64,000 bases of DNA from a virus (IMGVR_UViG_3300046780_000888:1-64000), one strand, 5' to 3'; shown: positions 1,081 to 18,673, numbered from the stretch's first letter. Notes: generated by a model from the letters alone, not told the origin. A program made the numbers and translations.

Positions 1081-4286
<3,206 letters not shown>

Positions 4287-4290
4287 CCGA

Positions 4291-5115: not shown

Positions 5116-5149
5116 GACGCGAAGCCTTGCACGTCTTCGCTGAGCCTGT

Positions 5150-5704: not shown

Positions 5705-5868
5705 TGCCCCGTCCCCTTGTAGGCGAAGAACACGAGGACGAAGAGAAGCTCACCGGGATGTAGTCCGCGGCGCCAAGTGCTGCACTTCTGGCAGATTTTC
5801 AGATCTCCTCGACGCACGAACTCGTGGGCGCACGCTTCCTGCTCTGGCGTCTCCTTGATCCACTTCAT
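5701..5868 (-). CDS. Small hypothetical protein with CxH/CxxC motifs
   Basis: MKWIKETPEQEACAHEF...ICQKC; overlaps both neighbours by 4 nt. Confidence 0.45.
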   Translation of the reverse strand: MKWIKETPEQEACAHEFVRRGDLKICQKCSTWRRGLHPGELLFVLVFFAYKGTGH

Positions 5869-6140
5869 GGCCACTCCGAGCACGCGATCACGCGCGGCGA
5901 GCGTCCTGTCAGGAACTCTCCCCACATCGAGCGAGATTCGCCGTTGCTTCCGTTGAAGCGCAGGCGCTCCGCTCGCTCTGTCTCGCATTCCACGATAATG
6001 GCCTCCTCGATATCCTCCGGATCGGAACCCTGCTCCTCCCCCGTCTCGTACAATAGTTCCAGCACGTGCCGCGGGTGCAGCGCCGAGACCCAATACGTGG
6101 CGCCCCCGACCTTCGCCTCGTAAAGCTTCGTTTCGACCAT
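5865..6140 (-). CDS. Hypothetical protein
   Basis: 91-aa acidic ORF in a translationally coupled array. Confidence 0.6.
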   Translation of the reverse strand: MVETKLYEAKVGGATYWVSALHPRHVLELLYETGEEQGSDPEDIEEAIIVECETERAERLRFNGSNGESRSMWGEFLTGRSPRVIACSEWP

Positions 6141-6445
6141 CAGCCGATCTCCCCCCAGCTCAGGTGTCCGCGTCCATGCTTCGCGATCCAGTCGCGGACC
6201 GGCCCGCTCTCGTCGTCCTCCTCCCCCTCATCGACGGTCAGGATCTCGTCCGGCCCGAGCGTCTGCCACGTCCAATCCGGTGGGTCGTATCCCTCCTGCC
6301 GTTCCGCTTCGGAAAAGCCTTCTTTTTCTCGATACTCGGCCAGCAGCTTCTCGGCTGCCTCCTGGCTCTCCGCGATCACCCAGTGCGCCTCGTAGATGTC
6401 GTGATCGTGCGCGACGAACATCTGAAGTTCGAGAGCGTCGGTCAT
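6140..6445 (-). CDS. Hypothetical protein
   Basis: 101-aa acidic ORF with coupled stop/start. Confidence 0.65.
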   Translation of the reverse strand: MTDALELQMFVAHDHDIYEAHWVIAESQEAAEKLLAEYREKEGFSEAERQEGYDPPDWTWQTLGPDEILTVDEGEEDDESGPVRDWIAKHGRGHLSWGEIG

Positions 6446-6849
6446 CCGAGCGTCCTCGGTAGGGTCCCGGAGAGCGGAAGAGGGAGCGGCTTGATTCGTC
6501 CCTCAGCCAGATCATCTACGCCGACCGGCTTCGAGCCGATGAATTTGCGATCCCACTCGCATTCGAGTTCGTGAAATAAGTGCCACGCCACCCGCTCGAG
6601 ATTCACGGCCGACAGAGGCAGCAGGAGATTCCATCGCAGGCACTCTTCGCCTTCGGCGAGACCAAAATACACCACGCGCGCGCCGAGCCGGATGAGCTCC
6701 TCTCTATCCGCAGTGAGGACGTCGTAGTCCCCGGTGTCTCGCAATCGCTGGTAGCACGTACGACATCGAATCCGCAGGACATCGAAGTGCTCGTACGGGA
6801 TCTCGATCGACAGCCATCGGGCACCGAAAAAATCGCCAAGGTCCATCAC
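6442..6849 (-). CDS. Hypothetical protein
   Basis: 135 aa; GTGA overlap preceded by AAGGAG. Confidence 0.6.
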   Translation of the reverse strand: MMDLGDFFGARWLSIEIPYEHFDVLRIRCRTCYQRLRDTGDYDVLTADREELIRLGARVVYFGLAEGEECLRWNLLLPLSAVNLERVAWHLFHELECEWDRKFIGSKPVGVDDLAEGRIKPLPLPLSGTLPRTLG

Positions 6850-7127
6850 GGTTTCTCCTTCATGCTGCTCTCCCCCAGCGTTGATTCCCTCGGTCCGAAG
6901 ACGTGGCGCCGGTGATCCTCGAGCGCGGCGATCAAACTATCCAGCGTTCCCGGGCCTTTGAATCGAAAGACGACCTTCGCGCCTGCGAGCGGGAAATGGA
7001 GATGCACCTGCGTGGGCGGCACCGTCGGGGCTGGCGTGGGGCACCAGGAGAACACCTCGATGCTTTCGATCTTCCCCTCGTAGTAGTCGAACTTGTGTCG
7101 CGTCGAATCCCTAGGCAGTTTGTCCAT
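6846..7127 (-). CDS. Hypothetical protein
   Basis: 93 aa; AGAGGAG RBS. Confidence 0.65.
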   Translation of the reverse strand: MDKLPRDSTRHKFDYYEGKIESIEVFSWCPTPAPTVPPTQVHLHFPLAGAKVVFRFKGPGTLDSLIAALEDHRRHVFGPRESTLGESSMKEKP

Positions 7128-7443
7128 CGGTCTCCTCTTTCTTCTGTGGGGTCGTGTCCTCTTCGTCCAGCGACCGGCGCATCGCTCGCAGCTGCGAGAT
7201 GGCGTACTCCGTTCCGCACGGGTGCGTCATCAGGTGATGATACGACGCGAAGGCCTCGCAGAGCAGGTATGCCTGCGCTTGCGTGAGCCGATTCAGGGCG
7301 TACCGCGCGGTGTGTGCTGCCTCGTGCAGCGGTTCGTACTCCGGATCCGTCATGCTCCACCCGTACGGACCTTCGTTGAACCGGATCCACCCGTGCCGCC
7401 GCATCCGAACGACGTCTGGCTTTCTTTTATCGGACATTTTCAC
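7111..7443 (-). CDS. Hypothetical protein
   Basis: 110-aa ORF in the array. Confidence 0.6.
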   Translation of the reverse strand: MKMSDKRKPDVVRMRRHGWIRFNEGPYGWSMTDPEYEPLHEAAHTARYALNRLTQAQAYLLCEAFASYHHLMTHPCGTEYAISQLRAMRRSLDEEDTTPQKKEETDGQTA

Positions 7444-7624
7444 CGTTCTCCCCGTTCAGAAAACTGAGGACTTTCCTTCGCCAGCACTCAAGGCGCTCCC
7501 TGGTGTTCTGGATCTCCGTCGGCGTCGGAAAGAGCCCGTATCGCGGAACCGGATGAAGCACCGCCTGCACAATCGCGAGGCCCTCGATGAGTAGCGTTCG
7601 CTCTCTGTTAACGTCAGCCGACAT
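7427..7624 (-). CDS. Hypothetical protein
   Basis: 65-aa ORF filling the gap in the array. Confidence 0.5.
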   Translation of the reverse strand: MSADVNRERTLLIEGLAIVQAVLHPVPRYGLFPTPTEIQNTRERLECWRRKVLSFLNGENGENVR

Positions 7625-8189
7625 GTTCCCTCAGTGGAGCTGCGAAGCGCTCCCAAGCCTCTACGTCCTCCTCGAGCACCTGCACCTCTTCCTCCCCGAT
7701 CGTCCATCCGACCGGATACTTCCCGCCGGGAAATTTGAACTGCACGGTGACAGACCGGAGCGCCGCGAAGATCCGTAGCTCGTTGCTCCCTGGATACCTA
7801 TCCGTGACGACCTTGGCCGCATTCCAGATCCGCATCCGCTGCTCGCGGTCGCCCCTCAATCGTTTGAGACAGCACTTCGCCGAGCAGTACACGTCTCCAT
7901 CGCGGAGCACGTACGGGGCTGCCATGTGTGTCTCGTCGTAACCCTCGCCCTCCTCGGCACGGACTTGTCTGTCGCATCCCATGCACCCGAACCACCAGCC
8001 AGCGGCAAGCTGGGCGCGAATCAGATCGTCCCCGGCGAGCCCGTCGAATTCCGGGGCGCGAGTGGCCCGACGGGAGAGAAACTCGATATCCAGACTGGTA
8101 TTGTTCTTCGCCTCGGAGCGGGTAGCCGCATGCACGATCTCCGCGTGACCTTCGTCGTCCCAGGGATCCTCGATCTTCCAGGCTTTCAT
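7614..8189 (-). CDS. Hypothetical phage protein with Cys motifs
   Basis: MKAWKI...RAPEFD...GWWFGCMGC...YCSAKC...FKFPGG. Confidence 0.65.
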   Translation of the reverse strand: MKAWKIEDPWDDEGHAEIVHAATRSEAKNNTSLDIEFLSRRATRAPEFDGLAGDDLIRAQLAAGWWFGCMGCDRQVRAEEGEGYDETHMAAPYVLRDGDVYCSAKCCLKRLRGDREQRMRIWNAAKVVTDRYPGSNELRIFAALRSVTVQFKFPGGKYPVGWTIGEEEVQVLEEDVEAWERFAAPLREHVG

Positions 8190-8485
8190 GGCTCCGGGCC
8201 CCATTCTGAACAGCTATCCACAGCGACGCGCATCTCGTATCCCTGAGAGCGATGAAAGCTCGAGGTGAGCCAGACGTCGCCGAGGCGACTCGCGCCGGTT
8301 ACGCGGTAGCGCTTTCTCGCGTACGTACAGAACAGCCGCGACTTGATAAATTTGCGCGCCAAGATCTGGTGTATCGCAGGCAACCGGAAATGAAGGAACA
8401 TCCAGCGCGCGTAGTCGTCGTTGCGCGGATTGTCGACCCAGTCGTCGATGTGGGTTCCAGTAAAGCCCTCGAACTCTTCCGTCAT
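8186..8485 (-). CDS. Hypothetical phage protein
   Basis: LFCTY..KRYRVTGASRLGDVWLT...GYEMRV; coupled to neighbours. Confidence 0.7.
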   Translation of the reverse strand: MTEEFEGFTGTHIDDWVDNPRNDDYARWMFLHFRLPAIHQILARKFIKSRLFCTYARKRYRVTGASRLGDVWLTSSFHRSQGYEMRVAVDSCSEWGPEP

Positions 8486-8910
8486 CGTTCCTCTCTCCTG
8501 AACCTGCGCTCGAGGATGGCCCGTTCCTTTGCCGTCAACAGGTCTTTGATAGACTCCGTGTACTTCCGTAGCGCTCCCTCCGCATTGTCGAGCTTCTTGC
8601 CGAGCGCGCGCACTTCTGGATCTATCCGCTCTAGCTCCGCGAGGGACGCTTCGAGCTGTGGAGCCAGATCAGCCACCTGCTCGAACGTCACGGGCCTCGG
8701 CTCATCATTCCAGAGCAGCACGGCTTCTTCCTTCGGATCAATCGGCCCGTCTTCCTCTTCGTCGGACCACGCCGCTGGCCCCTGACAAAAGCAGCTCTTG
8801 CAACATACGTAGACTCTGGTTTCCAGAGCATCGTCCATCACCTCGAGCTCCATGCCACTGCACCACGGGCACGGACGAGTAATGGCCGGGAGCTTGCGCT
8901 CCTCCGTCAT
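8482..8910 (-). CDS. Lar-family restriction alleviation-like Zn-finger protein with coiled coil
   Basis: PCPWC...VCCKSCFCQGP...EAVLLWN is the Lar pattern. Confidence 0.7.
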   Translation of the reverse strand: MTEERKLPAITRPCPWCSGMELEVMDDALETRVYVCCKSCFCQGPAAWSDEEEDGPIDPKEEAVLLWNDEPRPVTFEQVADLAPQLEASLAELERIDPEVRALGKKLDNAEGALRKYTESIKDLLTAKERAILERRFRREER

Positions 8911-9179
8911 GGCGGCGGCACCGTGTCTTTCAGCGCGTCAAGAGCCTGCTGCAACTCCGCCCGCCGCGCCTCTGCGGCCTCTCGCGTCGCATGCAACTTG
9001 TCCGCCTTGACGCCATCCATATGGATGCCCGAGCCGCGGCGCGACCGGACGAGCCACCCGACCTCTGCCGGCGCAGCCTCGACCTCGACCACCTCGTAGT
9101 CGCCACCGGCACGGCTATGCACGATGCCATACATCTTTCGCCATCGCTCTTCTGACATGTTTTCCTTTGACACCTTCAT
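8907..9179 (-). CDS. Hypothetical protein
   Basis: MKVSKENMSEE...; ATGA overlaps. Confidence 0.55.
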   Translation of the reverse strand: MKVSKENMSEERWRKMYGIVHSRAGGDYEVVEVEAAPAEVGWLVRSRRGSGIHMDGVKADKLHATREAAEARRAELQQALDALKDTVPPP

Positions 9180-10114
9180 AACGCCACCTGCATCAACGGC
9201 CCAAGCAGGGCATTTGCTTTGACGCACAGGTCTCGAAATTCGTCCTGATACGAACCGTCGTGCACACACAGCTGCATCCGACGAAGAAAGGTCACTCCGA
9301 AGTTGTCCTGCTCGTTCTCGATGTCCGCGCCCGCTGCGAGCACAAGCCGAGAGGCGTCCTCTTTATCCCCGAGCGACACCAGCACGAGAGCGAGCCCCCA
9401 GAGCATCTGTTGCTCGTGCGTATACTGCCACCAGTCGGTTGGCGCCTGCGCTGGCCACCGGAGAATGCTTTTCATCAAGGGAGGAAGGAGCGGCGGCATC
9501 ACCGTCGCGACGAACGTCTGTTGCGCCGCGTCCATGGCTTCATCACGGAGGAGCTCCGAGCAGCACGATACCCAGAGTTGCGCCCGCCTCTTCTGGGAAG
9601 AGGTCCACTCGATCCCATCGGAGCCGCCGAGCAGAGCTGATTCCATCGAGCCCTGTAACAGCAAAGGCAACCTAGTCGCCCAGTAAAATGCAATTCCGCT
9701 CGGGCTTACTGAGGCGGCTTTCGTGTACACGCCCGTCTCGTGCAACACCGGCGCCATCACATCCACGTATCGGGCGGGGTTACCTAGCAGACAGCAGTGA
9801 AGGAGAAGCTGCGCGTAACCCGATCGCGCCGTCACGCCAAGACCACCGAGCGCCAAGATCCCTGGCCCACAACAATGCACCTGATCGACGTTGCTGCCGG
9901 CGCATGCACACGCAACCGAGAACACGGCTTCCCAGAAGCCCGGGTGCCCGGTCAGCCGCGGCTTCCTCGCTCCGATGGCGTACCAGCCCGAGTACTGTCC
10001 GTGCTTCGCCCAGCGCACCCATGGTCGACCGTCCTTTGTGCGCGCAGGACCGTCCGTCGTGACTTCAAGAGCATCGAAGTCCGGACGACCGGAAGCCCGA
10101 AGAGGTGAGGTCAC
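9176..10114 (-). CDS. Hypothetical protein
   Basis: About 312-aa ORF; its GTG start overlaps the upstream stop. Confidence 0.6.
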   Translation of the reverse strand: MTSPLRASGRPDFDALEVTTDGPARTKDGRPWVRWAKHGQYSGWYAIGARKPRLTGHPGFWEAVFSVACACAGSNVDQVHCCGPGILALGGLGVTARSGYAQLLLHCCLLGNPARYVDVMAPVLHETGVYTKAASVSPSGIAFYWATRLPLLLQGSMESALLGGSDGIEWTSSQKRRAQLWVSCCSELLRDEAMDAAQQTFVATVMPPLLPPLMKSILRWPAQAPTDWWQYTHEQQMLWGLALVLVSLGDKEDASRLVLAAGADIENEQDNFGVTFLRRMQLCVHDGSYQDEFRDLCVKANALLGPLMQVAL

Positions 10115-10502: not shown

Positions 10503-10813
10503 GGTTTCTCCCCGGGCCCAGAGTTTCCGTCCACGTCGCGCCCACGGAAGAACATCTCGGGCGTGGGCGATTCCTCGGCAGCAATGGCCTCGTAGTGAGC
10601 GATCTGCTCCGCGAGCCCTCGCAGCTTTGCGCGCACTTCAGCTAGAGTTGCGGCGGCGGCCTCGAACGCGGCTTTTGCGTCGATGTATTGCTCGTGCGCC
10701 TCTTCAAGCTCTGCGCTGTATTGCCTCCTCGCGTTCGTCAACGTTGTCGCACGGTCCTTCGCCAGAAACCGAATCGTCTCCGGGTTGTTCCAGTCGAACG
10801 GATCTGGTTTCAT
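10499..10813 (-). CDS. Coiled-coil hypothetical protein
   Basis: MKPDPFDWNN... followed by an Ala/Glu-rich helix. Confidence 0.6.
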   Translation of the reverse strand: MKPDPFDWNNPETIRFLAKDRATTLTNARRQYSAELEEAHEQYIDAKAAFEAAAATLAEVRAKLRGLAEQIAHYEAIAAEESPTPEMFFRGRDVDGNSGPGEKP

Positions 10814-10983
10814 GGCTGCTGCCGCCACGGTTTCTTGCCGCCTAGTTGGCGCGCCACTAGCTCTTCGAGGAGCTCGTACACGAAGGCGCCGCGTTCCGCA
10901 GAGCGCTGTTTCAGCCAGGAACCGAAGTCCCGCCGCACCTTGATGGATATGGTGGGTGGCCGACGCGATGGACGAGCGGTCAT
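10810..10983 (-). CDS. Small ribbon-helix-helix-like DNA-binding protein (not in the ORF track)
   Basis: Manual translation gives MTARPSRRPPTISIKVRRDFGSWLKQRSAERGAFVYELLEELVARQLGGKKPWRQQP. It has ATGA overlaps with hicA and the downstream gene. Confidence 0.6.
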   Translation of the reverse strand: MTARPSRRPPTISIKVRRDFGSWLKQRSAERGAFVYELLEELVARQLGGKKPWRQQP

Positions 10984-11171
10984 CCGCCCTCGTCGAGGCC
11001 GGCATCCCGAAGGATCGACAGGTACGTACCGCGCGGTAGATCCGTTGCGTGCCTGGGTACGATGACACGTCGCCCGGCACTGTTCTCATAGATGTCGTGC
11101 CGTTTGCCGTGACGCGCTAAGTAAAAGCCAGCTCGCTTCAGGCGCCGAACCAACGCAGAAACCTTTTCCAT
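10980..11171 (-). CDS. hicA: HicA family toxin (mRNA interferase)
   Basis: MEKVSALVRRLKRAGFYLARHGKRHDIY....RRVIVPRHATDLPRGTYLSILRDAGL. Confidence 0.9.
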   Translation of the reverse strand: MEKVSALVRRLKRAGFYLARHGKRHDIYENSAGRRVIVPRHATDLPRGTYLSILRDAGLDEGG

Positions 11172-11173
11172 GC

Positions 11174-11383
11174 TCAGAGCCGGAGTTCGCCCGTGCGAAT
11201 AGCTGCGGCGGGAGGGAGCTTCTCGCCAAGCTCGGACAGATAATCGTCGAGCTCGTAAAGAGCATCCTTCAAGTCCGCCACGGCCTGAGCCGACGTAGCG
11301 CCGAGACCGTAGGCCCCCGGGATCGCGGGACAGTGAGCGGTCCATACGCCTTCTTCTCTCCAGGAAACGTAGTCGTACACCAT
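11174..11383 (-). CDS. hicB: HicB family antitoxin (short form lacking a DNA-binding domain)
   Basis: EEGVWTAHCPAIPGAYGLGAT...AVADLKDAL...GEKLP. Confidence 0.85.
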   Translation of the reverse strand: MVYDYVSWREEGVWTAHCPAIPGAYGLGATSAQAVADLKDALYELDDYLSELGEKLPPAAAIRTGELRL

Positions 11384-11472
11384 GGTGGATAAGTCTACCG
11401 GCTACGCGGGCGGCGTCAAGCGACTCCCTGGACAGGAAACACGAGCGCACAGAACCTGCTGTTCAGACTGCC

Positions 11473-11748
11473 TCACGTTCCTGGATCCTTTCCAGATTCG
11501 TTTCCGTGCTCCTGTCGGCCGTCTCCAACATAGAGGAGCCGGTAGAGCGCCTGCTGTAGATCCACGATGTCTAGCCCGTGCGGCGTCTCGAACCCATGGC
11601 GTTGCAGCACATCGGCCACGTCAATCACTAGCCCAATCGTGAAGCGGGAATCGTGCTCCGGAGTGGGACGAATCGGGTAGCTGCGCTTCGACACCGTAGA
11701 TTCGATCGGAGCGACCTTCTCGGTACTCTCTTTTTCAGACTGCCTCAC
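11473..11748 (-). CDS. MRQS-cassette hypothetical protein
   Basis: MRQSEKESTEKVAPIES...YPIRPTPEHDSRFTIGLVIDVADVLQRHGF. Confidence 0.7.
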   Translation of the reverse strand: MRQSEKESTEKVAPIESTVSKRSYPIRPTPEHDSRFTIGLVIDVADVLQRHGFETPHGLDIVDLQQALYRLLYVGDGRQEHGNESGKDPGT

Positions 11749-12059
11749 GGTTTGCTCCTGACGCTAGGGTCGTTTCTGCCTACCCGAGCCATCGCCTGCT
11801 CCGCCCTCATGAGCGCAGCTTCGATTCCGCGCTTTTGCTGAGTCGTCCAGCGCACCTCATCCTTGAGCGCGAGAAGCACGCCGGAGCACGTCGCGAGCGC
11901 GAGGTGTAGTTCCTGCACCTGACCCTCTCGAATCGGCAGCGGGTCCAGTGAACAGTCGTGCCCGCTCGGACACGCGCCATCGACCAGCGCTCGGTAGCAG
12001 GAACGGCAATACTCAGGTTTCGCCACCTTCGCGAGACTCTGCTTCTTGGACTGCCTCAC
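11745..12059 (-). CDS. MRQS-cassette protein with Zn-ribbon-like motif
   Basis: MRQSKKQSLAKVAKPEYCRSC...GACPSGHDC. Confidence 0.65.
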   Translation of the reverse strand: MRQSKKQSLAKVAKPEYCRSCYRALVDGACPSGHDCSLDPLPIREGQVQELHLALATCSGVLLALKDEVRWTTQQKRGIEAALMRAEQAMARVGRNDPSVRSKP

Positions 12060-12220
12060 GGTCGAGGGTCCTTTCTGTGCTGCAAACGAATGTCACCCAC
12101 GTAGAACTTCTTCCGACACCGGTAACAGTGAATGAGCGGTTCTCCGCCGGAATCGGGAGACCAGCCTCCGGGCACGTGACCCCGAAAGAAGCACAGAATC
12201 GAAGCGACAAACTGCCTCAC
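12056..12220 (-). CDS. MRQ-cassette small Zn-finger protein (DUF1660-like; not in the ORF track)
   Basis: Manual translation gives MRQFVASILCFFRGHVPGGWSPDSGGEPLIHCYRCRKKFYVGDIRLQHRKDPRP, exactly bounded by two junction motifs. Confidence 0.65.
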   Translation of the reverse strand: MRQFVASILCFFRGHVPGGWSPDSGGEPLIHCYRCRKKFYVGDIRLQHRKDPRP

Positions 12221-12561
12221 GGTTTCACCCTGAGGCTACGGTCGATTCTATCCACCACTAGCCTAGCGCGCCGAATCTCCCCGTCCGTGATGTAGTGACC
12301 AGAAATGGCGCGGTCGTCATCTTCAGAGGCGCAGGGAAGTTCCGCGAACGAGGCGAGTACCCGTCTCGCATCACCGAGCAACTCCTCTATCTTCTCGTAC
12401 GTCGGTCCGGCCTCGAATGTCTCATAGCTGTCGTAGAAGCACTGACCGATGAACCCACCACCGTTATGCTCGGCCTCAACCTGCCCGCAGTTGCGACACG
12501 TCTGCTGGTCGGAACCGATCGGAACCACCTTCGGCGGGACGTGGTTTTCAGACTGCCTCAC
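12217..12561 (-). CDS. MRQS-cassette hypothetical protein
   Basis: MRQSENHVPPKVVPIGSDQQTCRNCGQVEAEH... Confidence 0.65.
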   Translation of the reverse strand: MRQSENHVPPKVVPIGSDQQTCRNCGQVEAEHNGGGFIGQCFYDSYETFEAGPTYEKIEELLGDARRVLASFAELPCASEDDDRAISGHYITDGEIRRARLVVDRIDRSLRVKP

Positions 12562-12779
12562 GGTCGCGCCTCGCTTCCAGAATCGTTTCTGTCTACCGGA
12601 GGACTCGGCAAGTGCGTCCACCAGTCGATGTGCCACGGGTAGCTGCCGCCCACCCATCTGCTGGTTTCGTGGTGAAACAGGGCGACCCGGTACTCGCCGT
12701 CGATGTCCGAATACGCGAGGACCCGCGCATCCGTAGGTGGAGGACTATTCGCCGGAAACCACTCGACAGACTGCCTCAC
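12558..12779 (-). CDS. MRQS-cassette protein, DUF551-like
   Basis: W.P...PP....VLA...WWTHLPSPP is a DUF551-type pattern. Confidence 0.65.
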   Translation of the reverse strand: MRQSVEWFPANSPPPTDARVLAYSDIDGEYRVALFHHETSRWVGGSYPWHIDWWTHLPSPPVDRNDSGSEARP

Positions 12780-13441
12780 GGCCGCGCCTCGATTCTGTCC
12801 ACCATCGACATGTCCGGCTTCCCGTGCCAGCGCGCCCATTCTCCCCAGATGAGCCGCCACGCCTCGATATCGATCCCCAGCTCTCGGAGCCGTCGCATCG
12901 CGTGGTCCGTCGCGAACATCGGCATCGGCCCGGCTCGGTTGAATGCCGCTCCGTCACGCTGTGAAGGGGGCGCGAAGCCACGCGCAGGGCCCCAGGGGGC
13001 GAGGATGACCTCCTCGAAACCCCACGCTTGCCACTCGCGCTCGCCGTCGTGCCCGATCTCGCTCTCGGACAAGCCGTAGTTGCGAAGCGCACGCTCCTTC
13101 GGAGTCGCGGCAACAAAATGCCCGACCTCATGGAGCAGCCATTCCATCGCACCCTCCGGAACCGAAACGGACAGCGTCTTCTTGGCGGGGATTGCTGGTT
13201 CTTCGCCAAGCTCGTCTTGCTCCTCTGGAAAGATGTGAATCGCCGGGCGCTCGCGCCGCTGACGCCGCTCACGTTTGAGGGTCTCTTCCGAGCTCTCGCC
13301 GCCTCCGCCACCACAGGCCCATATAGTGCCGTCCGCCAGTGGTAGCTTGGGCAAGTAGGCCATGCCGGTAGTAGCCGAGGCGAGCGCCAGCGCTTGGCTC
13401 CAGAGCTCAGGTCTCTCTGCGGTTAGAGCATTGCCGATCAT
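12776..13441 (-). CDS. HExxH motif protein (possible metallopeptidase)
   Basis: WLLHEVGHFVA with downstream E residues (EREWQAWGFEE). Confidence 0.55.
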   Translation of the reverse strand: MIGNALTAERPELWSQALALASATTGMAYLPKLPLADGTIWACGGGGGESSEETLKRERRQRRERPAIHIFPEEQDELGEEPAIPAKKTLSVSVPEGAMEWLLHEVGHFVAATPKERALRNYGLSESEIGHDGEREWQAWGFEEVILAPWGPARGFAPPSQRDGAAFNRAGPMPMFATDHAMRRLRELGIDIEAWRLIWGEWARWHGKPDMSMVDRIEARP

Positions 13442-13758
13442 CTGCCATCCACCTCATCCACCGCGGACTTGCCCTCCACGGCCATTCGGATCGCGATGGC
13501 GGCCGGCAGTAACCCGGCTTCCACGAATGGCAGGAACGAGCGGTGCCGCCGAATCGCAAACTCGGCCTGACCTTCGTCGTAGAACTCGCCGATGAAATCC
13601 TCGTCAACTTCGTCGGGATTGCTATCGTGTCGCTGCCGTTTTCGGGATTGTGCCGACAAGCGCGCTTCGGCCGCTGCGATGATGCGACGGTACTTGGCGC
13701 CCTCCGAGCTGGTTGCCTCCGTGCTGGTTGCCTTTGGTGTCGTCTTCTGTGATTTCAT
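13438..13758 (-). CDS. Hypothetical protein
   Basis: MKSQKTTPK...; ATGA overlap with the recombinase stop. Confidence 0.5.
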   Translation of the reverse strand: MKSQKTTPKATSTEATSSEGAKYRRIIAAAEARLSAQSRKRQRHDSNPDEVDEDFIGEFYDEGQAEFAIRRHRSFLPFVEAGLLPAAIAIRMAVEGKSAVDEVDGR

Positions 13759-14705
13759 AGCCCCATATCCTCCGTTGCGTTGCGTTTCGAGAGGTCGGCG
13801 ATCCGAATGTACCGCCGCACCATGTTCGCGTTCGCGTGCCCGGTGTGCCGCATGATCTCGCTCTCGGTGTGACCCTTGAGCGCGGCCTCGGTGACGAACC
13901 CGGCCCGGAGCGAGTGCGCGCCGTAGCCATTCGAGTCGATGCCCGCGAGCGTCATCAGTCGCTTCACGACCTTCTCGATGTACTGCGGCCAGAGGGCGAC
14001 CTTCTCGCCGTACTGCACCACGCGGTTCCACCGGGAGACGGGACGGAAGATCGGACCCGAATCGATCTTCGCGGTCGCGAGCCACTGCTTCAGGAGCAGG
14101 ACAGGATCCGTCTCCGGGTTCTTCCCGAAGAGGACCATCTTCTCGAAGCCGTTGCCCTCCTGGTCCTCTTTCCCGCGCACCACGAGCACCGTCATGCCCT
14201 TCTCGTGGAACGTCACGTGCTCCACGAGGCAGTCGGCGATCTCGTGCCGGCGCATCGCGCAGGCCCAACCGAACGAGACGATCGCACGGTCCCGAATATT
14301 CATCAGGGTGGTCGGCGGGCACGCCGCTAGCATCGCAATCACGTGCTTCGCGAGGAGCGGCTTCATGCCCTCGGCGCGGACCTTCTTCGTGCGGCGGACC
14401 CCGCGCCAGACCTGCTGGACGGCGGCCTCGAAGCGGGGGCTCTTGTGTCCGACCGCCTCGTGCGCCTCGCCGATGGCCGAGAGGAACTGAGAGATGGTGC
14501 TCACAGAGAGACCGTCCTCGGCCATCTTCGCGATGTAGAGCCGGACGGTCTCCGGCTTCGCGGGGACGGCCTGCTCCCCGACAGTCGCGCACCAGTCCTT
14601 GAACTGACGCATCTTGGTTTCGTAGGCGTCGCGCGTGCCCGGCGCGCGTGAATGTTGGGCGTACTTGAGCGCTGCGACCGCGAGGTCGCTGTGTTTCTCC
14701 TGCAT
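13755..14705 (-). CDS. Tyrosine recombinase/integrase (Cre-like, with N-terminal SAM-like domain)
   Basis: RDRAIVSFGWACAMRRHEI, GKEDQEG, AHSLRAGFVT, RHTGH, MVRRY carry the catalytic R-K-H-R-H-Y residues. Confidence 0.95.
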   Translation of the reverse strand: MQEKHSDLAVAALKYAQHSRAPGTRDAYETKMRQFKDWCATVGEQAVPAKPETVRLYIAKMAEDGLSVSTISQFLSAIGEAHEAVGHKSPRFEAAVQQVWRGVRRTKKVRAEGMKPLLAKHVIAMLAACPPTTLMNIRDRAIVSFGWACAMRRHEIADCLVEHVTFHEKGMTVLVVRGKEDQEGNGFEKMVLFGKNPETDPVLLLKQWLATAKIDSGPIFRPVSRWNRVVQYGEKVALWPQYIEKVVKRLMTLAGIDSNGYGAHSLRAGFVTEAALKGHTESEIMRHTGHANANMVRRYIRIADLSKRNATEDMGL

Positions 14706-14754
14706 GGTCCGTCAGACGGAGACAGCTCGCGGATATTCACGCCTCGCTCCTGCC

Positions 14755-15189
14755 TCATCCGGATCTCCTGACCGCGCGCTCGCTGGTTCTTGAGCGACGC
14801 CGCCGGTCTTTTCGTTCGAGATATGCAAGCGAGTCGCGCGCATCGACGCGGTCCAACAAGTCGAGCAGTTCGCTGGCCTTCACGGCGAGCTCTGCGGAAT
14901 CGAATTCCATCAACTCATGCACGGTCTCGCCCTTCTCAGCGATGAGCGTTTCGATTCCATTGCGGAGTTCCTCGGCCTCTCTCCCGTTGAGAGAGCTCGC
15001 GTGCCGCGGAGGCTTGCACGCCGAACACTTGCAGAGGCACGACGGCCGCTGCTCGTTGTAGTTGTCGCACCCTGGGCCTCGACAGTGCTTGCCCCAGAGG
15101 AGCGGCTTCGTCGCATACGGGTCGGACTCAGGTTTCGCGACCTTTGCCGGACGCGATCGTTTCGTAGCCTTGTGGCGTGTCTGCCTCAC
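14755..15189 (-). CDS. MRQ-cassette hypothetical protein with Cys cluster
   Basis: MRQTRHKATKRSRPAKVAKPESD...HCRGPGC...CLCKCSAC. Confidence 0.6.
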   Translation of the reverse strand: MRQTRHKATKRSRPAKVAKPESDPYATKPLLWGKHCRGPGCDNYNEQRPSCLCKCSACKPPRHASSLNGREAEELRNGIETLIAEKGETVHELMEFDSAELAVKASELLDLLDRVDARDSLAYLERKDRRRRSRTSERAVRRSG

Positions 15190-15404
15190 TTCGGCACCGC
15201 GCTTCCGTGAGCCAATCGGAGGCGCCGAAGTACCTCGTCCTTCATTGCCACGAGGTTCTGACGGAACGTCTCGCTCATTGGGTCGAAGCAGATTCCGCTC
15301 GCGCCCGGAGCCCACCGCGCCGTCGCGTCGATAAGGCGCCTTACAACCTCGTCATCCGTCAGGTGGTCGTACTTACCTCGCGGCTTCTTATTTGAATCAG
15401 CCAT
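15186..15404 (-). CDS. Hypothetical protein
   Basis: 72 aa, coupled to neighbours. Confidence 0.55.
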   Translation of the reverse strand: MADSNKKPRGKYDHLTDDEVVRRLIDATARWAPGASGICFDPMSETFRQNLVAMKDEVLRRLRLAHGSAVPK

Positions 15405-15597
15405 CGGATTTCTCCACCCGCTCGACGCGCCACTCGCTCCGTTCGGCGCTTACCAGCCACTCGGCGAACAGGTCGCCGATGCGCATGTCGAAATTCGACG
15501 CCGCGACCCTGCCGTCCACGACTAGCACGAGTTGCGGGTTGTGCTTGCTGCTGCTCGCAGTCGTGACGCGGTACCAGCCGTCTCGCTCGTGCCTCAT
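15397..15597 (-). CDS. Hypothetical protein
   Basis: MRHERDGWYRV...; starts in an ATGAGGCA junction. Confidence 0.5.
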   Translation of the reverse strand: MRHERDGWYRVTTASSSKHNPQLVLVVDGRVAASNFDMRIGDLFAEWLVSAERSEWRVERVEKSDG

Positions 15598-15809
15598 TTT
15601 GCATGGTCCTTTCTTGAAGCCCTGCGGTCGCGAAGAATCATTGTGAGGACCACAGGCAGCATGAACGGCCACCACGTGCCGAGAGCCATAGCGGGCCCCC
15701 ATGCGTCCGGAATTCCTCGCCGTCGCCACGACGTTTGGACAAGCACTCCGGTCACGAGCGACATCACAAAGTATAGTCCCAGAAATATATACAGCTCACG
15801 CTCCGTCAT
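15594..15809 (-). CDS. Small two-TM membrane protein
   Basis: LYIFLGLYFVMSLVTGVLV...ALGTWWPFMLPVVLTMIL. Confidence 0.65.
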   Translation of the reverse strand: MTERELYIFLGLYFVMSLVTGVLVQTSWRRRGIPDAWGPAMALGTWWPFMLPVVLTMILRDRRASRKDHAK

Positions 15810-16072
15810 AGCGCCCCCTGGAGCATCTCGATTGCCTTAGCGGCCAATCCAGCCACCGGCTCCGAGTGCTGGTGCGACAAACGCAGGGCCTTGATCGCCA
15901 GCGCCGCCCCTTCTCTCAACTTCGCTGCCTCCCGACACTCGGCGATCAGGACGCGCCCCGCATCAACCAACGCGTCGCAATACGCGAACCGCGTTTCCGG
16001 CCGGTGCCCGTCGCGTTCTGCCTGGGCGATCAAGCGATCGAGCTCGTCGAGGATAGGGATGATGTCGGGCAT
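15806..16072 (-). CDS. Hypothetical protein
   Basis: MPDIIPILDELDRL...; GGGGAG RBS. Confidence 0.55.
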   Translation of the reverse strand: MPDIIPILDELDRLIAQAERDGHRPETRFAYCDALVDAGRVLIAECREAAKLREGAALAIKALRLSHQHSEPVAGLAAKAIEMLQGAL

Positions 16073-16074
16073 CG

Positions 16075-16362
16075 CTACTCCCCGCACCTGTCGCAGACCA
16101 TGATGGCCCCGCCCGGCGCTTGCGTCCGCCTCAGTTTCCCGCCGCACTCGCAGTCGAGTCCAGGATTTGGATGTACCCGCCAATTCGCGGCGCGAACGTC
16201 GATCACGTCGGCTGCCCTGCCGATGAAGTCGCGGCCCCGTCGTCCCCTGATGCTGGCGATCGTGCGCTCGCTCGTGCGATTCAGCGCCACCGCGGCGCGG
16301 ATCAGGAGCGCATCCAGGTATCGGCTCGCCGTCACGGGAGCTCCTTTTCTTGGGTCGGTCAT
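16075..16362 (-). CDS. Hypothetical Zn-ribbon protein, first gene of the leftward array
   Basis: CECGG...VCDRCGE; start codon uncertain. Confidence 0.5.
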   Translation of the reverse strand: MTDPRKGAPVTASRYLDALLIRAAVALNRTSERTIASIRGRRGRDFIGRAADVIDVRAANWRVHPNPGLDCECGGKLRRTQAPGGAIMVCDRCGE

Positions 16363-16444
16363 CTGAAAGAAGTGAGCGTGCCGGCGGGGCTCCCCGATCG
16401 CCGGAGGGATCGGCATCAGGGTCGCCGGCACGCTCTGAGTCCTG

Positions 16445-16510
16445 TGGCTATCATGGCTAGCCAATTGTGTCAACCGGGCTTGACCAGGGGCTGGTAGGCG
16501 CCCAGATTGG
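16445..16510. promoter_or_regulatory. Divergent promoter region with a 21-bp operator-like element
   Basis: TGGCTATCATGGCTAGCCAAT (16445-16465); TTGACA on the minus strand at about 16468-16473; TTGACC on the plus strand at 16480. This is the strand-switch point. Confidence 0.6.
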
Positions 16511-16552
16511 GCTTGTTGGCGCACTACAATCACCTGCGAGGGCGAGGCTAAG

Positions 16553-17275
16553 TTGCCGCGGCGCATGGCGGGCACGCTGTCGCCGGTGCAGATGTCGCAC
16601 GCGGCGCGCGTTGGGCACGACCGCTACGTCGCTCGCGGGCAGACGATGCGGCCGGAGATCCTCGACGTGCAGACCGCGCAAGCGGAGCAAGCCGTCGCGT
16701 TCGCGCTCAATCGGGAATGGGTCGGCGACTTCGTTCGGGTGAGCGAATGGAAGATCTGGCGAACGATGACGAAGGATGTGCGCGGCATGCAGGTGCGCAT
16801 GACGGCGCTGCCCCTCGGCGGACTCGCGCTCGACGAGAGCGATGCGGACGATCACGCCTTCGTGCTCGTCATCAATCGTGACAGTCCGCACTTCGTTGTC
16901 GCGGGTTGGATCCTTGGTCGAGACGCGAAGCAAGAAAAGTTTCGCGACACGGAAGAGACGCTCGGTCCGCCACGCTTCCTTGTTCCGCAAACAGAACTCC
17001 TTCCGTGTTGGGAGCTCAAGCGAGAGCCCGAGCACCGGAAGCGCGGTGAGCGGACGAAGGATCCGGCGAAGGACTTCGGCGGGACCGGTCGCTTCCCGCA
17101 GCGGCGCTACGCCGACACCGGCGAGCACCCAAGCAAGTACGGAAACATCATCCGCTCGAAGTTCGATCTGCCGTGTTGCCGTTGCCAGACGATCATCCCC
17201 GCTGGGATGCTTTGTGGAGGCAGCCTGGTGACGGGCAACATCCACGGAGATCCGGCGGACTGCAAAAAATCTTAG
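16553..17275 (+). CDS. Hypothetical phage protein (possible nuclease-like fold)
   Basis: AEQAVAFAL...DVRGMQVR...FVLV...VAGWI.G.DAK; C-terminal CxxC motif. Confidence 0.55.
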   Translation: MPRRMAGTLSPVQMSHAARVGHDRYVARGQTMRPEILDVQTAQAEQAVAFALNREWVGDFVRVSEWKIWRTMTKDVRGMQVRMTALPLGGLALDESDADDHAFVLVINRDSPHFVVAGWILGRDAKQEKFRDTEETLGPPRFLVPQTELLPCWELKREPEHRKRGERTKDPAKDFGGTGRFPQRRYADTGEHPSKYGNIIRSKFDLPCCRCQTIIPAGMLCGGSLVTGNIHGDPADCKKS

Positions 17276-17316
17276 CGACCTTCCCAGGCTTCCCGCGGTT
17301 TGCCGGAAGAACCACG

Positions 17317-17346
17317 TTGACATCCCGGATTGGGTTTTGATAGACC
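17317..17346 (+). promoter_or_regulatory. Putative sigma70-type promoter for the replication operon
   Basis: TTGACA at 17317 with a weak -10 (TAGACC) just before ATG 17357. Confidence 0.45.
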
Positions 17347-17356
17347 CATCGATCCG

Positions 17357-17536
17357 ATGTCCGAACCAATCAAAACCTCTCGACGCATGGACCTCATGCT
17401 CGATGCCGAAGACGGCAAGCTCTTGTCGCGCGTGTCGCGGCACGAAAAACTCTCGAAAGCCGACATTCTACGGCGCGCTCTTCGGGAGTACGCCAAGAAG
17501 TCGCTCCCTGTAGAAGCTCAATCAAAAGTCGCTTAG
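17357..17536 (+). CDS. CopG/ribbon-helix-helix regulator
   Basis: RRMDLMLDAEDGKLLSRVSRHEKLSKADILRRALREY. Confidence 0.8.
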   Translation: MSEPIKTSRRMDLMLDAEDGKLLSRVSRHEKLSKADILRRALREYAKKSLPVEAQSKVA

Positions 17537-17560
17537 TCGTAACCGCACGGGGAGTTCCGT

Positions 17561-18673
17561 ATGCGTTACGACATCGACTCGTTGATGCACGAGGACGAGA
17601 AATTCGTCCTGCTCTCAGACGCGGCGCAAGCGTTGTGGACGCTTCTATTGACCGGACCACAGCGGCGGCGGCTCCCTGGTTTGCAGTACACCACGCTCGC
17701 CCAGCTTGCTGGGATCCGACGACGCTCACCAGAGCTCGTGAAAGAAGCGCTGCACGAACTCGTCGAGGCGGGGATGCTCAAACACGACGAGAAAGCGCGC
17801 GTCATCCTCCTTCCGAATCAGCCCTTCTACAACCAAACGCCCAACGGCAACATCATCCGCGGTTGGTTCACTGATTGGCGCGGGATCCCTGAGTCACCAC
17901 TGAAACAGGAGTTCGTTCAGCTACTCCTCCAGGCCATCGATTTTAAGTCCCCCAAGGGGTCCAGCGACCGCATCCAGGCATGGGCCGAGACCTTCGGTGC
18001 CATCGGAACCCGACCCAAGAAGGGGGTCACACCGAGCCAGAGCCCCGGGGGCGAACCCCCACAATCCGGCCCGGTTGCTGAGGAAGGGTTCCCCCCGTCA
18101 CGGGTAACTGTTCCCCCCCTAAAAACACCCCCAAAAACACCCCCTTTAACCCTTACCCAAAAAACAGGGAACGGTTCCAGCCGTCCGCCGCCTAATAATA
18201 GCAGCCAAGTGCCTGCAACTAGCGACGAAATCTCGTCACTGCTTCCTTCTCTTGGATTGGGGGCTGAGCAACAACGACTGAAAGGGTTGGGGAACCCTTT
18301 GGATCTGGATCTGGATCTGGATCGTAGTAGTATGGACTCTGGATCTGATCTGAAATCTGGATCTGATCCGAGAGGGGGTGCAGGGGGAGAGGGCGCGGGC
18401 CGGATTCCGTGCCCAGTGAAACTTTGGGACCTGATGCCGGAGCCGACGAAGGCCTCGCTCGACACGAGCCTGATCCCTCGCGCCGCGCAGGAGTTTTTAT
18501 GCAAGGGCTTCACGGCTCGGTTCGCCGGGCGCTTGGAACACGAACGCTCGTTCAACGAGTGGGTCTCGAGTGCCGTACGCGCGATTCAGTACGACTATCA
18601 CGATCCGAAGAAGCGACCACCCGTATTGCCAGAGAAACCGAAGCCGCTGAAGTTTAGAAAGTGGGACGATTGA
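17561..18673 (+). CDS. Putative replication initiator (replisome organiser, N-terminal wHTH)
   Basis: DEKFVLLSDAAQALW.LLL....PGL...LAQL...VKEALHELVEAGML; low-complexity linker; lies directly upstream of the DnaC-like and DnaB genes. Confidence 0.7.
   Translation: MRYDIDSLMHEDEKFVLLSDAAQALWTLLLTGPQRRRLPGLQYTTLAQLAGIRRRSPELVKEALHELVEAGMLKHDEKARVILLPNQPFYNQTPNGNIIRGWFTDWRGIPESPLKQEFVQLLLQAIDFKSPKGSSDRIQAWAETFGAIGTRPKKGVTPSQSPGGEPPQSGPVAEEGFPPSRVTVPPLKTPPKTPPLTLTQKTGNGSSRPPPNNSSQVPATSDEISSLLPSLGLGAEQQRLKGLGNPLDLDLDLDRSSMDSGSDLKSGSDPRGGAGGEGAGRIPCPVKLWDLMPEPTKASLDTSLIPRAAQEFLCKGFTARFAGRLEHERSFNEWVSSAVRAIQYDYHDPKKRPPVLPEKPKPLKFRKWDD

What the first reader, a model, noticed from the sequence alone, without database searches (positions are those of the whole stretch)
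11464..15597. Cassette-like gene array joined by a conserved GTGAGGCAG junction, flanking a tyrosine recombinase
Seen: on the minus strand six consecutive gene boundaries carry CGTGAGGCAGT. Its TGA ends one gene (often ...KP* or ...RP*) and its GTG starts the next, so otherwise unrelated proteins begin MRQS or MRQF (starts at 12779, 12561, 12220, 12059, 11748 and a 24-aa stub at 11476). Three looser copies (15597, 15189, 14758) lie on the other side of the Cre-like recombinase; the last sits just upstream of it. Ordinary translational coupling needs only NTGA, so 11-14 conserved bases is far beyond that. Inference: a crossover site for acquiring or shuffling single-gene cassettes that automatically places each in frame and coupled. 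It would be integron-like in logic but has no attC hairpins or IntI.
Basis: partly seen in the sequence, partly recalled or inferred. Interest (0 to 1): 0.85.

Follow-up and report, generated by a model that had tools for sequence, protein, structure and literature searches.

The report
Phage gene cassettes sharing one joint
A soil virus strings small unrelated genes together through one conserved stop/start joint, and in related viruses whole genes have been swapped, lost and duplicated exactly at that joint, so it looks like a built-in plug for exchanging accessory genes.

Summary
CGTGAGGCAGT occurs 6 times in the 130-kb virus record, all on the minus strand at 11467-12780. About 0.05 copies are expected by chance. 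Each copy is a stop/start overlap between small genes with no known family. Three looser copies ([AG]TGAGGCA) flank the Cre-like recombinase.

The motif is the core of a longer joint. Related viruses carry the same design with the core CCGTGAAGCA: 7 further IMG/VR records and 16 metagenome contigs hold arrays. In them the next gene starts either at the core or exactly 57 nt later, after a 19-codon relay ORF.

Cassettes that are 92-100% identical sit in different arrays, and the identity switches on and off inside the 7 nt TGAAGCA. Of 41 homology ends inside arrays, 21 lie at a core in both partners. Deletion, reordering and duplication at cores are all seen. So the reading [quoted passage not shown] is supported, but only in the relatives. 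No close relative of this window's AGG variant was found.

The link to the recombinase is not shown. It has all its catalytic residues, but it is itself bounded by a core like a cassette, and several arrays have none nearby. No attC-like or lox-like site was found. I favour short-homology recombination at the core. Site-specific exchange is not excluded.

The parts
12770..12780 (-). Junction core 1 (CGTGAGGCAGT): the TGA ends the 221-aa ORF and the GTG starts the 73-aa cassette
12552..12562 (-). Junction core 2: ends the 73-aa cassette and starts the 114-aa cassette
12211..12221 (-). Junction core 3: ends the 114-aa cassette and starts the 54-aa cassette
12050..12060 (-). Junction core 4: ends the 54-aa cassette and starts the 104-aa cassette
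11739..11749 (-). Junction core 5: ends the 104-aa cassette and starts the 91-aa cassette
11467..11477 (-). Junction core 6 (end of the array): ends the 91-aa cassette and opens only a 24-codon stub
12558..12779 (-). Cassette ORF, 73 aa, no Pfam or PHROG family
12217..12561 (-). Cassette ORF, 114 aa, no family above threshold
12056..12220 (-). Cassette ORF, 54 aa, Cys-rich; starts directly at the core without a leader
11745..12059 (-). Cassette ORF, 104 aa; only a weak PHROG hit of unknown function
11473..11748 (-). Cassette ORF, 91 aa, no family
11402..11476 (-). 24-codon stub after the last core; it ends in TAG with no overlapping start
11392..11419 (-). The only sigma-70-like site on this strand in 10800-17800 (TTGACG, 16 nt, TAGACT). 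It lies just after the stub and before a weak HicB-like ORF
   Evidence: a consensus match only (1 found, 1.2 expected)
12776..13441 (-). 221-aa ORF whose stop lies in core 1. Homologues in L068 and L069 are not followed by arrays
13438..13758 (-). 106-aa ORF, joined to its neighbours by plain ATGA overlaps without the core
13755..14705 (-). Cre-like tyrosine recombinase, 316 aa, with catalytic R, E, K, H, R, H, Y aligned to Cre
14750..14759 (-). Loose core (GGATGAGGCA): ends the 144-aa ORF. It is orthologous in position to the GATGAAGCA core upstream of the recombinase in G001
14755..15189 (-). 144-aa ORF starting VRQT.. at a loose core
15181..15190 (-). Loose core (AGTGAGGCA): ends the 72-aa ORF and starts the 144-aa ORF
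15589..15598 (-). Loose core (AATGAGGCA): ends the 71-aa ORF and starts the 66-aa ORF

Best explanation
The motif is the invariant core of a joint that links accessory-gene cassettes in the early leftward operon of a bacterial virus.

Shown: every core is a stop/start overlap. A ribosome finishing one cassette can restart on the next. A Shine-Dalgarno sits in the tail of the upstream cassette.

Shown in relatives: each cassette carries its own 5' leader and 3' tail. The leader is either fused to the protein or read as a separate relay ORF of exactly 19 codons that ends in TTGA, ATGA or GTGA on the next start. Cassettes move, drop out and duplicate as units bounded by cores, and the crossover falls inside the 7 nt TGAAGCA.

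Inferred: exchange happens by short-homology recombination or replication slippage at the core, during co-infection or within one genome. Any exchange at the core automatically restores reading frame and coupling. A cassette with a mutated core leaves the mobile pool, which would keep the core invariant while leaders and tails drift. In this window all nine cores read AGG instead of AAG, which would make it a separate exchange pool. On this reading the Cre-like recombinase is one of the cassettes, not the engine.
For: Stop/start role
- Window.
- Family: of 102 dereplicated cores, 66 end an upstream frame of at least 35 codons at the core TGA. After the core, 55 open an ORF of at least 35 codons. 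Another 24 open an ORF of exactly 19 codons, and all 24 end in NTGA (19 TTGA, 4 ATGA, 1 GTGA).
- Orientation: 108 cores forward against 2 reverse inside arrays.

Core versus flanks
- Positions -1 to +8 are 88-100% conserved in 40 copies, the flanks 60-80%. These copies were selected by their core.
- 77 of 94 copies are exactly CCGTGAAGCA.

Exchange at the core
- 31 HSPs of at least 90% identity and 150 nt between different contigs give 45 internal ends, 41 of them inside arrays. Of these, 21 lie within -3 to +12 of a core in both partners and 5 in one partner. About 4% of array positions fall in such a window.
- Alignments show identity switching on and off at the core. Examples: L112/L119 (445 nt, 99.3%), L111/L113 (299 nt, 99.3%), L113/L117 (297 nt, 99.0%), G006/L101 (356 nt, 83%).
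- One cassette follows GATGAAGCA with one type of tail in L113 and CGTGAAGCA with another in L117. This confines the crossover to TGAAGCA.
- Array maps show deletion (L117 against L113), different neighbours for the same cassette (L105, L109, L111, L116) and an internal duplication (L113: 95% over 226 nt, bounded by cores).
- G001 and G007 share 85-87% identical flanks, and the differing block begins right after one core and ends at another.

The recombinase as a cassette
- A core variant precedes it in G000 and G001, and a weaker one in G002.
- It is 86-92% identical in nucleotides among G001-G003, and the flanks are unrelated from its stop codon onward.
- No homologue lies near the arrays of G004a, G005, G006, G007, L105 or L097.

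Breakpoints outside the core
- Some ends lie at +20 and +59 in both partners. A homology-driven process can explain this; a fixed cleavage site cannot.

Cassette content
- 76 cassette proteins scanned. 10 Pfam families matched, each in a single member, among them Dam, RNA ligase, HTH families and ACT.
Against: - There is no direct evidence in this window. None of its five cassettes recurs elsewhere and no AGG-type array was found in IMG/VR.
- Profiles built from the relatives' joints do not detect the window's joints. Kinship rests on four things: 9 of 10 core bases, the same phase and architecture, the orthologous recombinase with the same upstream core, and one 14-nt identity in a leader.
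- Seven to ten bases is very little homology for general recombination, yet many independent events use it. A dedicated enzyme would explain that more easily.
- A tyrosine-recombinase domain is found in all five near-complete genomes with arrays (G000-G004), next to the array in four of them and 2 kb from the second array in G004.
- The contigs compared are metagenome assemblies, many from one series of samples. The ends counted are not independent events, and chimeric joins cannot be wholly excluded.
- Selection for intact genes could also place surviving breakpoints at gene borders.
Confidence: 0.5

Rival explanations
1. Integron-like site-specific system. The Cre-like recombinase, or another dedicated enzyme acting in cis or in trans during co-infection, cuts and rejoins within the invariant 7-bp TGA[A/G]GCA. 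It excises cassettes as circles and inserts them at any core.
For: - The crossover is confined to 7 nt. From recalled knowledge, that is the size of the overlap region of tyrosine-recombinase sites.
- All nine cores of this genome changed together from AAG to AGG, and its recombinase is the most divergent one: 72-76% amino-acid identity to those of G001-G003, which are 93-98% identical to each other.
- The recombinase has all catalytic residues. It heads the array, in the same orientation, in G000-G003.
- Many independent exchanges use only 7-10 nt of identity.
- From recalled knowledge, integron cassette arrays without an integrase are also common, so arrays that lack the gene do not exclude action in trans.
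Against: - There is no dyad symmetry or pair of conserved arms around the core. Only one 10-nt block is conserved.
- No lox-like inverted repeat lies within 2 kb of the gene in G000, G001 or G002.
- Arrays hold 108 forward cores against 2 reverse, so there is no regular inverse core as attC sites would need, and the leader has no consensus hairpin (0 pairs).
- Arrays in G004a, G005, G006, G007, L105 and L097 have no homologue in the sequence held. G007 lacks it at the very locus where its close relative G001 has it.
- The gene is itself bounded by a core like any cassette.
- Some breakpoints lie at +20 and +59.
Confidence: 0.25
2. The core is primarily an RNA-level signal, and exchange at it is a by-product. 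It could be an optimised termination-reinitiation site, or the binding or cleavage site of a phage or host factor that co-regulates the early accessory genes. It would then be comparable to the start-associated sequences of Cluster K mycobacteriophages or to T4 RegA/RegB targets.
For: - Every core lies on the coding strand, in phase with a stop and a start.
- The relay ORF keeps exactly 19 codons in 24 copies despite sequence drift.
- A Shine-Dalgarno sits in the tails.
- The precedent of SAS: a 13-bp one-orientation motif at the starts of non-structural genes, function unknown (PMC3203893; passages read).
Against: - Other gene pairs in the same operon are coupled by plain ATGA without the core (13441 and 13758). 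Coupling alone therefore does not need it.
- Synonymous alternatives for the flanking Pro and Lys codons are almost never used. That is unexpected for a purely ribosomal signal.
- It does not by itself explain near-identical cassettes in unrelated contexts.
- No complementary copy of the motif exists in the genome, which speaks against an antisense RNA partner.
Confidence: 0.2
3. The array is a family of tandem paralogues. Their ends stayed alike because the shared N- and C-terminal peptides (MRQS.., ..KP) are functional tags, for example for targeting or packaging.
For: - Shared N-terminal stretches such as MRQSE...KVAPI and shared C-terminal ..RP or ..KP.
Against: - In relatives the same leader is often a separate 19-codon ORF that is not part of the protein (24 of 102).
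- The tail is read in different frames, or as the N-terminus of the next ORF.
- The cassette interiors share no detectable similarity.
- The conservation is at the nucleotide level.
Confidence: 0.04

Closest known systems
PeSL (promoter-early stem-loop) mobile regulatory cassettes of T4-type phages (PMC2839356 and PMC4122927; abstracts and outlines read)
   Same: Short conserved elements lie between mostly ORFan, non-essential genes in hyperplastic regions. Recombination between the elements gives insertions, deletions and replacements of single genes between close relatives.
   Different: A PeSL is an intergenic sigma-70 promoter plus a terminator hairpin. Here no promoter-like or terminator-like site lies at the joints on the coding strand. 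The joint is translated, its core is a stop/start overlap, and the exchange point is only 7-10 nt. Mini-circles were shown for PeSLs and are not shown here.
Integron (IntI, attI, attC cassette array); features recalled from general knowledge
   Same: An array of mostly promoterless single-gene cassettes in one orientation. There is a very short conserved crossover point at each cassette border and a tyrosine recombinase at the head of the array in some genomes. Cassette content is highly variable next to a conserved recombinase.
   Different: The recombinase is Cre-like, not IntI, and points the same way as the cassettes. There are no attC inverted repeats or hairpins. The joint lies inside coding sequence and enforces translational coupling. 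Some arrays have no recombinase nearby.
Start-associated sequences (SAS/ESAS) of Cluster K mycobacteriophages (PMC3203893; passages read)
   Same: An asymmetric, one-orientation motif of about 10-13 nt, restricted to non-structural genes. It sits at translation starts of unrelated gene families and sometimes contains the upstream stop codon. It is absent from the rest of the genome.
   Different: SAS lies 3-7 bp upstream of the start and contains the Shine-Dalgarno. Here the motif contains the start and stop codons themselves. SAS sites are scattered over half a genome, not in one tight array. No cassette exchange at SAS is mentioned in the passages I read.
Cre/loxP of phage P1
   Same: The enzyme aligns with Cre over nearly its full length (query 32-304 against chain 30-310, E 5.6e-12) and keeps the catalytic residues.
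   Different: No 13-8-13 lox-like site (architecture recalled) was found at the joints or within 2 kb of the gene. Its substrate is unknown.
Ordinary 4-nt stop/start overlaps (ATGA, GTGA) and translational coupling (review PMC12548453; seen in the search listing and abstract only)
   Same: The same overlap geometry and the presumed termination-reinitiation.
   Different: Ten invariant bases instead of four, embedded in a repeat of about 90-110 nt, with relay mini-ORFs of fixed length.

Membership tests
Integron | IntI-type integrase (tyrosine recombinase with the IntI-specific extra domain) | tested here: not met
   The PDB sequence search returns Cre chains and XerH only; no integron integrase at E <= 0.001. 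The best NCBIfam hit scores 54 bits against a cut-off of 220, and the integron-integrase model is not among the hits at E <= 0.01.
Integron | attC sites: imperfect inverted repeats with paired core and inverse-core sites at each cassette end | tested here: not met
   Cores are 108 forward against 2 reverse inside arrays. RNAalifold finds 0 consensus pairs in 13 leaders.
Integron | Cassettes gained, lost and reordered precisely at the conserved core | tested here: met
   Met in relatives: 21 of 41 homology ends lie at a core in both partners; see also the array maps and alignments. Not testable for the window's own AGG arrays, because no relatives were found.
Integron | Integrase divergent from the array, with a common promoter Pc | tested here: not met
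   The recombinase is on the same strand as the cassettes and lies inside the run of cassettes.
PeSL cassettes (T4-type phages) | Composite sigma-70 early promoter plus terminator stem-loop between ORFs | tested here: not met
   Scan of 10800-17800: the only promoter-like site on the coding strand lies after the array, and there is no terminator-like site at any joint on that strand. The joints have no intergenic space.
PeSL cassettes (T4-type phages) | Repeat-mediated indels and replacements of ORFan genes between close relatives | tested here: met
   in relatives.
PeSL cassettes (T4-type phages) | Excised mini-circles | not testable with these tools
   Only low-depth Logan contigs were available. 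No joints at the cores were seen.
Start-associated sequences (Cluster K mycobacteriophages) | The 13-bp SAS consensus, 3-7 bp upstream of the start codon | tested here: not met
   The motif and its position differ: here the core contains the start codon (SAS description read).
Cre-like tyrosine recombinase (the enzyme only) | Catalytic R-(E)-K-H-R-(H/W)-Y and the two-domain fold | tested here: met
   The alignment to Cre chain 1crx_A shows R, E, K, H..R, H (at the Trp position of Cre) and Y conserved (Cre residue roles are recalled). Pfam PF00589 and PF02899 are above their cut-offs.
Cre/lox-type site | Two inverted binding arms around a 6-8-bp spacer | tested here: not met
   Only one conserved block (-1 to +8) at the joint. 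No suitable inverted repeat within 2 kb of the gene in three genomes.

The most novel reading that the evidence does not exclude
This is a virus-borne, integron-like gene-capture system of a new type. A Cre-family recombinase, able to act in trans on arrays of co-infecting viruses, exchanges circular single-gene cassettes at a 7-bp overlap that is itself a stop/start codon pair. Every insertion is therefore instantly expressed by ribosome relay. Variants of the overlap (AAG against AGG) would define separate exchange communities.
Probability: 0.2. Interest if true: 0.9.

Novelty: new variant of a known kind. Interest (0 to 1): 0.68.

Why it matters
How viruses of bacteria acquire and reshuffle their many small accessory genes, often counter-defence genes, is a long-standing question. 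Mosaic borders at gene ends are usually put down to random illegitimate recombination followed by selection.

Here a family of uncultivated soil and sediment viruses shows a defined joint of 7-10 nt at which near-identical genes have been moved between otherwise unrelated contexts. The joint also guarantees expression through stop/start coupling and fixed-length relay ORFs. That makes cassette exchange testable with a short, defined sequence. It also suggests a natural plug-and-play design for polycistronic expression. If the neighbouring Cre-like enzyme proves to act on the joint, it would be a second, independent kind of integron.

Tried and rejected
Chance. Rejected: 6 exact 11-mers against 0.05 expected.

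Close relatives of the AGG variant.
- A 14-mer scan of IMG/VR gave 63 loci with one match each, none with several.
- A tail-plus-core pattern gave 12 loci, all single hits outside any array.

Homologues of the 221-aa neighbour (L068, L069) and of a gene downstream of the relatives' arrays (L094). None has an array.

Prophage or host search. The junction pattern found 4 loci in 185,579 species genomes. By inspection all 4 are single hits inside ordinary genes, with no leader similarity. The host remains unknown.

Conserved RNA structure in the leader. RNAalifold found 0 pairs in 13 sequences. My by-eye hairpins did not hold up.

Sigma-54 promoter reading of the tail and core. The GG/GC spacing fits only some copies (by eye). 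Dropped.

Programmed -1 frameshift at the core. There is no slippery sequence (by eye). Dropped.

Chi-like hotspot. Considered because the core is short, oriented and lineage-specific. Not tested, since the host is unknown. Thought unlikely because the core occurs only in the arrays.

Lox-like site near the recombinase. None found.

Profile homology between the window's joints and the relatives' joints. With the class-1 profile nhmmer gave 0 hits at E <= 10. With the class-2 profile it gave one irrelevant hit at E 0.63.

Sequencing runs.
- 24 runs hold the stretch, none on record as RNA: 'no RNA holder listed'.
- Logan contigs of 4 runs were laid on 10800-16200. One contig of 1,693 nt spans five joints without a difference. 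There are no joints at any core. The single joint, 13894 to 16038, has 14 foreign letters and a 21-nt side. Depth is about 2-7 and these are contigs, so rare rearrangements could not have been seen.

Limits.
- Supplements of the papers were not opened.
- The claim that such a joint is not yet described rests on searches only.

Full report
**What is in the window**

The window is the first 64 kb of a 130,395-bp IMG/VR virus record. On the minus strand, CGTGAGGCAGT occurs six times between 11467 and 12780 and nowhere else in the record. The shuffles expect 0.05 copies, and 0 of 100 shuffles reach 6.

Translation shows that each copy is a stop/start overlap. The TGA closes one ORF; five of the six ORFs end in Pro. 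The GTG opens the next ORF (VRQS.. or VRQF..). The cassettes are 73, 114, 54, 104 and 91 aa long, and after the sixth copy there is only a 24-codon stub. None has a Pfam or PHROG family above threshold.

Three looser copies, [AG]TGAGGCA, also sit at stop/start overlaps, at 15597, 15189 and 14758. The last lies 50 nt upstream of a 316-aa tyrosine recombinase (13755-14705).

It takes in about 40 nt of upstream tail, with a GAGG or AGGA Shine-Dalgarno 6-7 nt before the GTG, and up to about 50 nt of downstream leader.

The only promoter-like site on this strand in 10800-17800 lies just after the stub, and no terminator-like site lies at a joint on that strand. These are consensus matches at chance frequency.

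**Relatives carry the same design with a one-base different core**

The exact motif is not repeated in any other IMG/VR contig. Searching with the recombinase found three viruses with 72-76% identical enzymes: L064, L065 and L066, which lie in records G001-G003. Downstream of each enzyme lies an array of small ORFs joined by CCGTGAAGCA.

Pattern scans then found the same joint in more places:
- four further IMG/VR records;
- 23 metagenome loci, of which L102 is the contig already held as G007.

In all, 25 regions from 24 records hold two or more cores. The median spacing is 322 nt, and 108 cores are forward against 2 reverse. In each record the cores form one cluster, except G004, which has two.

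**Anatomy of the joint in relatives**

- Among 94 copies, 77 are exactly CCGTGAAGCA.
- In 40 copies, positions -1 to +8 are 88-100% conserved and the flanks 60-80%. These copies were picked by their core, so the contrast is partly built in.
- A tail of about 33 nt precedes the core. It usually encodes the C-terminus of the upstream protein. In some copies it is read in another frame, or as the N-terminus of the next ORF.
- After the core there are two solutions. Of 102 dereplicated cores, 55 open an ORF of at least 35 codons directly. Another 24 open an ORF of exactly 19 codons, and its stop overlaps the next start in all 24 (19 TTGA, 4 ATGA, 1 GTGA), behind a strong Shine-Dalgarno. The remaining 23 open short ORFs of other lengths, many of which also end on an overlapping start.
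- The leader has no conserved hairpin (0 consensus pairs).
- A second class of joint uses GATGAAGCA with a different tail.

Translation therefore runs through these arrays as an unbroken relay, and each cassette brings its own leader and tail.

**Cassettes are exchanged at the core**

Recombinases of G001-G003 are 93-98% identical in protein and 86-92% in DNA. Even so, the arrays behind them share almost no cassettes, and the DNA homology ends at the recombinase stop codon.

Among the metagenome contigs many cassettes recur at 92-100% identity in different company. Taking HSPs of at least 90% identity and 150 nt between different contigs:
- there are 31 HSPs with 45 internal ends, of which 41 lie inside arrays;
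- of these 41, 21 lie within -3 to +12 of a core in both partners and 5 in one partner;
- about 4% of array positions fall in such a window.

Side-by-side alignments show identity switching on or off exactly at the core. Examples are L112/L119 (445 nt, 99.3%), L111/L113 (299 nt, 99.3%), L113/L117 (297 nt, 99.0%) and G006/L101 (356 nt, 83%).

In L113 and L117 the same cassette follows GATGAAGCA with a class-2 tail in one and CGTGAAGCA with a class-1 tail in the other. The crossover therefore lies inside TGAAGCA.

Array maps show three kinds of change:
- a deletion of four cassettes between two cores (L117 against L113);
- the same cassette with different neighbours (L105, L109, L111, L116);
- a duplication inside L113, 95% over 226 nt and bounded by cores.

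G001 and G007 share 85-87% identical flanks. The differing block starts immediately after a GATGAAGCA core and ends at a core or core remnant.

Results that count against a strictly fixed crossover: five ends lie at +20 and three at +59 in both partners.

Caveats: these are metagenome assemblies, many from one sample series, so the ends are not independent events. Chimeric assembly at identical stretches of up to about 28-45 nt cannot be fully excluded.

**How the window's array relates to this family**

The links are:
- 9 of 10 core bases are the same;
- the phase and the array design are the same;
- the recombinase is orthologous, and at the same place upstream of it G000 has GGATGAGGCAGG where G001 has GGATGAAGCAGG, followed in both by a shared imperfect palindrome;
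- a 14-nt identity links the leader at 12779 to leaders of relatives.

Against this, nhmmer profiles built from the relatives' joints do not find the window's joints, and none of its cassettes recurs elsewhere.

All nine cores of this genome carry AGG. I read that as a separate exchange pool or a changed specificity. It is an inference.

**The recombinase**

It aligns with Cre over nearly its whole length (E 5.6e-12) and keeps the catalytic R, E, K, H, R, H and Y (residue roles are recalled). It is not an integron integrase by PDB or NCBIfam comparison.

I found no lox-like inverted repeat near it and no dyad symmetry at the joint.

A homologue is present next to the array in G000-G003 only, among 32 regions searched. 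G004's main array, G005, G006, G007, L105 and L097 have none in the sequence held. G007 lacks it at the locus where its close relative G001 has it.

On the other side, all five near-complete genomes with arrays hold some tyrosine-recombinase domain. In G004 it lies in a 1,279-aa frame 2 kb from the second array. Action in trans cannot be excluded.

**Reading**

Shown:
- the core is a stop/start coupler;
- in relatives, it is the point at which cassettes are exchanged.

Inferred: the mechanism of exchange. I favour short-homology recombination or slippage at the core, with the recombinase as a passenger cassette (0.5). The rivals are site-specific exchange by that enzyme (0.25) and a primarily RNA-level signal with exchange as a by-product (0.2).

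**Content and context**

Of 76 cassette proteins from all arrays, the Pfam scan matched 10 families, each in a single member. They include Dam, RNA ligase, several HTH families and ACT.

Downstream in the same operon of the window lie a weak HicB-like ORF, a weak Lar-like ORF and an MT-A70 methyltransferase. Across the divergent region lie DnaC-like and DnaB genes. This is compatible with an early accessory or counter-defence region, but that function is not tested.

**Comparison with known systems**

The closest by behaviour are the PeSL cassettes of T4-type phages (abstracts read) and integrons. The closest by appearance are the start-associated sequences of Cluster K mycobacteriophages (passages read).

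This system fails the defining features of each:
- it has no promoter/terminator composite;
- it has no IntI and no attC;
- the motif and its position differ from SAS.

My literature searches turned up no description of a translated stop/start joint serving as a cassette border. I therefore class it as a new variant of linker-mediated cassette shuffling.

Noticed in passing
window 1-9887, and record positions 120509-130395 (outside the window): The first 9,887 bases of the record are repeated at its end with 99.99% identity. The genome unit is therefore 120,508 bp, either circular or with a long terminal repeat, although the record is classed 'linear, no end repeats'.
   Followed up: partly
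window 31341-58990 (+): Eight large ORFs of the presumed virion module (31341-33884, 40906-43152, 43355-44395, 44841-47384, 48518-49489, 49500-50402, 53350-54474, 57830-58990) have no PHROG family. The five of them also scanned against Pfam have no Pfam family. No terminase, portal or capsid family was recognised, so the virus is far from described tailed phages.
   Followed up: partly
window 14711-14745 (-); L089 and L090 upstream of their recombinases: A conserved imperfect palindrome (GCGTGAATATC plus CGC) lies between the core and the recombinase start in G000, G001 and G002. It could be an operator or a binding site of the enzyme.
   Followed up: no
record G000 70568-70783 (-), outside the window; G004 122602-122814: Very large open frames (1,386 and 1,279 aa) carry only the C-terminal half of the Phage_integrase domain. 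In G004 the frame lies 2 kb downstream of the second array.
   Followed up: no
window 11174-11383 (-), 8482-8910 (-), 5150-5704 (-): Downstream of the array in the same direction lie a weak HicB-like ORF (E 0.0034, below the cut-off), a weak Lar-like restriction-alleviation ORF (E 0.00085, below the cut-off) and a clear MT-A70 methyltransferase (E 2.5e-20).
   Followed up: partly
window 1081-4005 (-): A 974-aa protein with collagen triple-helix repeats (Pfam Collagen, E 1.9e-59, 5 stretches) in a patch of 72% G+C.
   Followed up: no
L089 (G001) against L084 (G007): Two viruses with 85-87% identical flanks differ by a block of about 5 kb against one of about 1 kb, both bounded by cores. The larger block holds the recombinase and a 244-aa ORF that looks like a QueC-type enzyme by its N-terminal motif. 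That is my recollection of the motif and was not tested.
   Followed up: partly
L113 1578-1791 and 2681-2894: The same cassette occurs twice in one array (95% over 226 nt), once behind CGTGAAGCA and once behind CATGAAGCA.
   Followed up: yes
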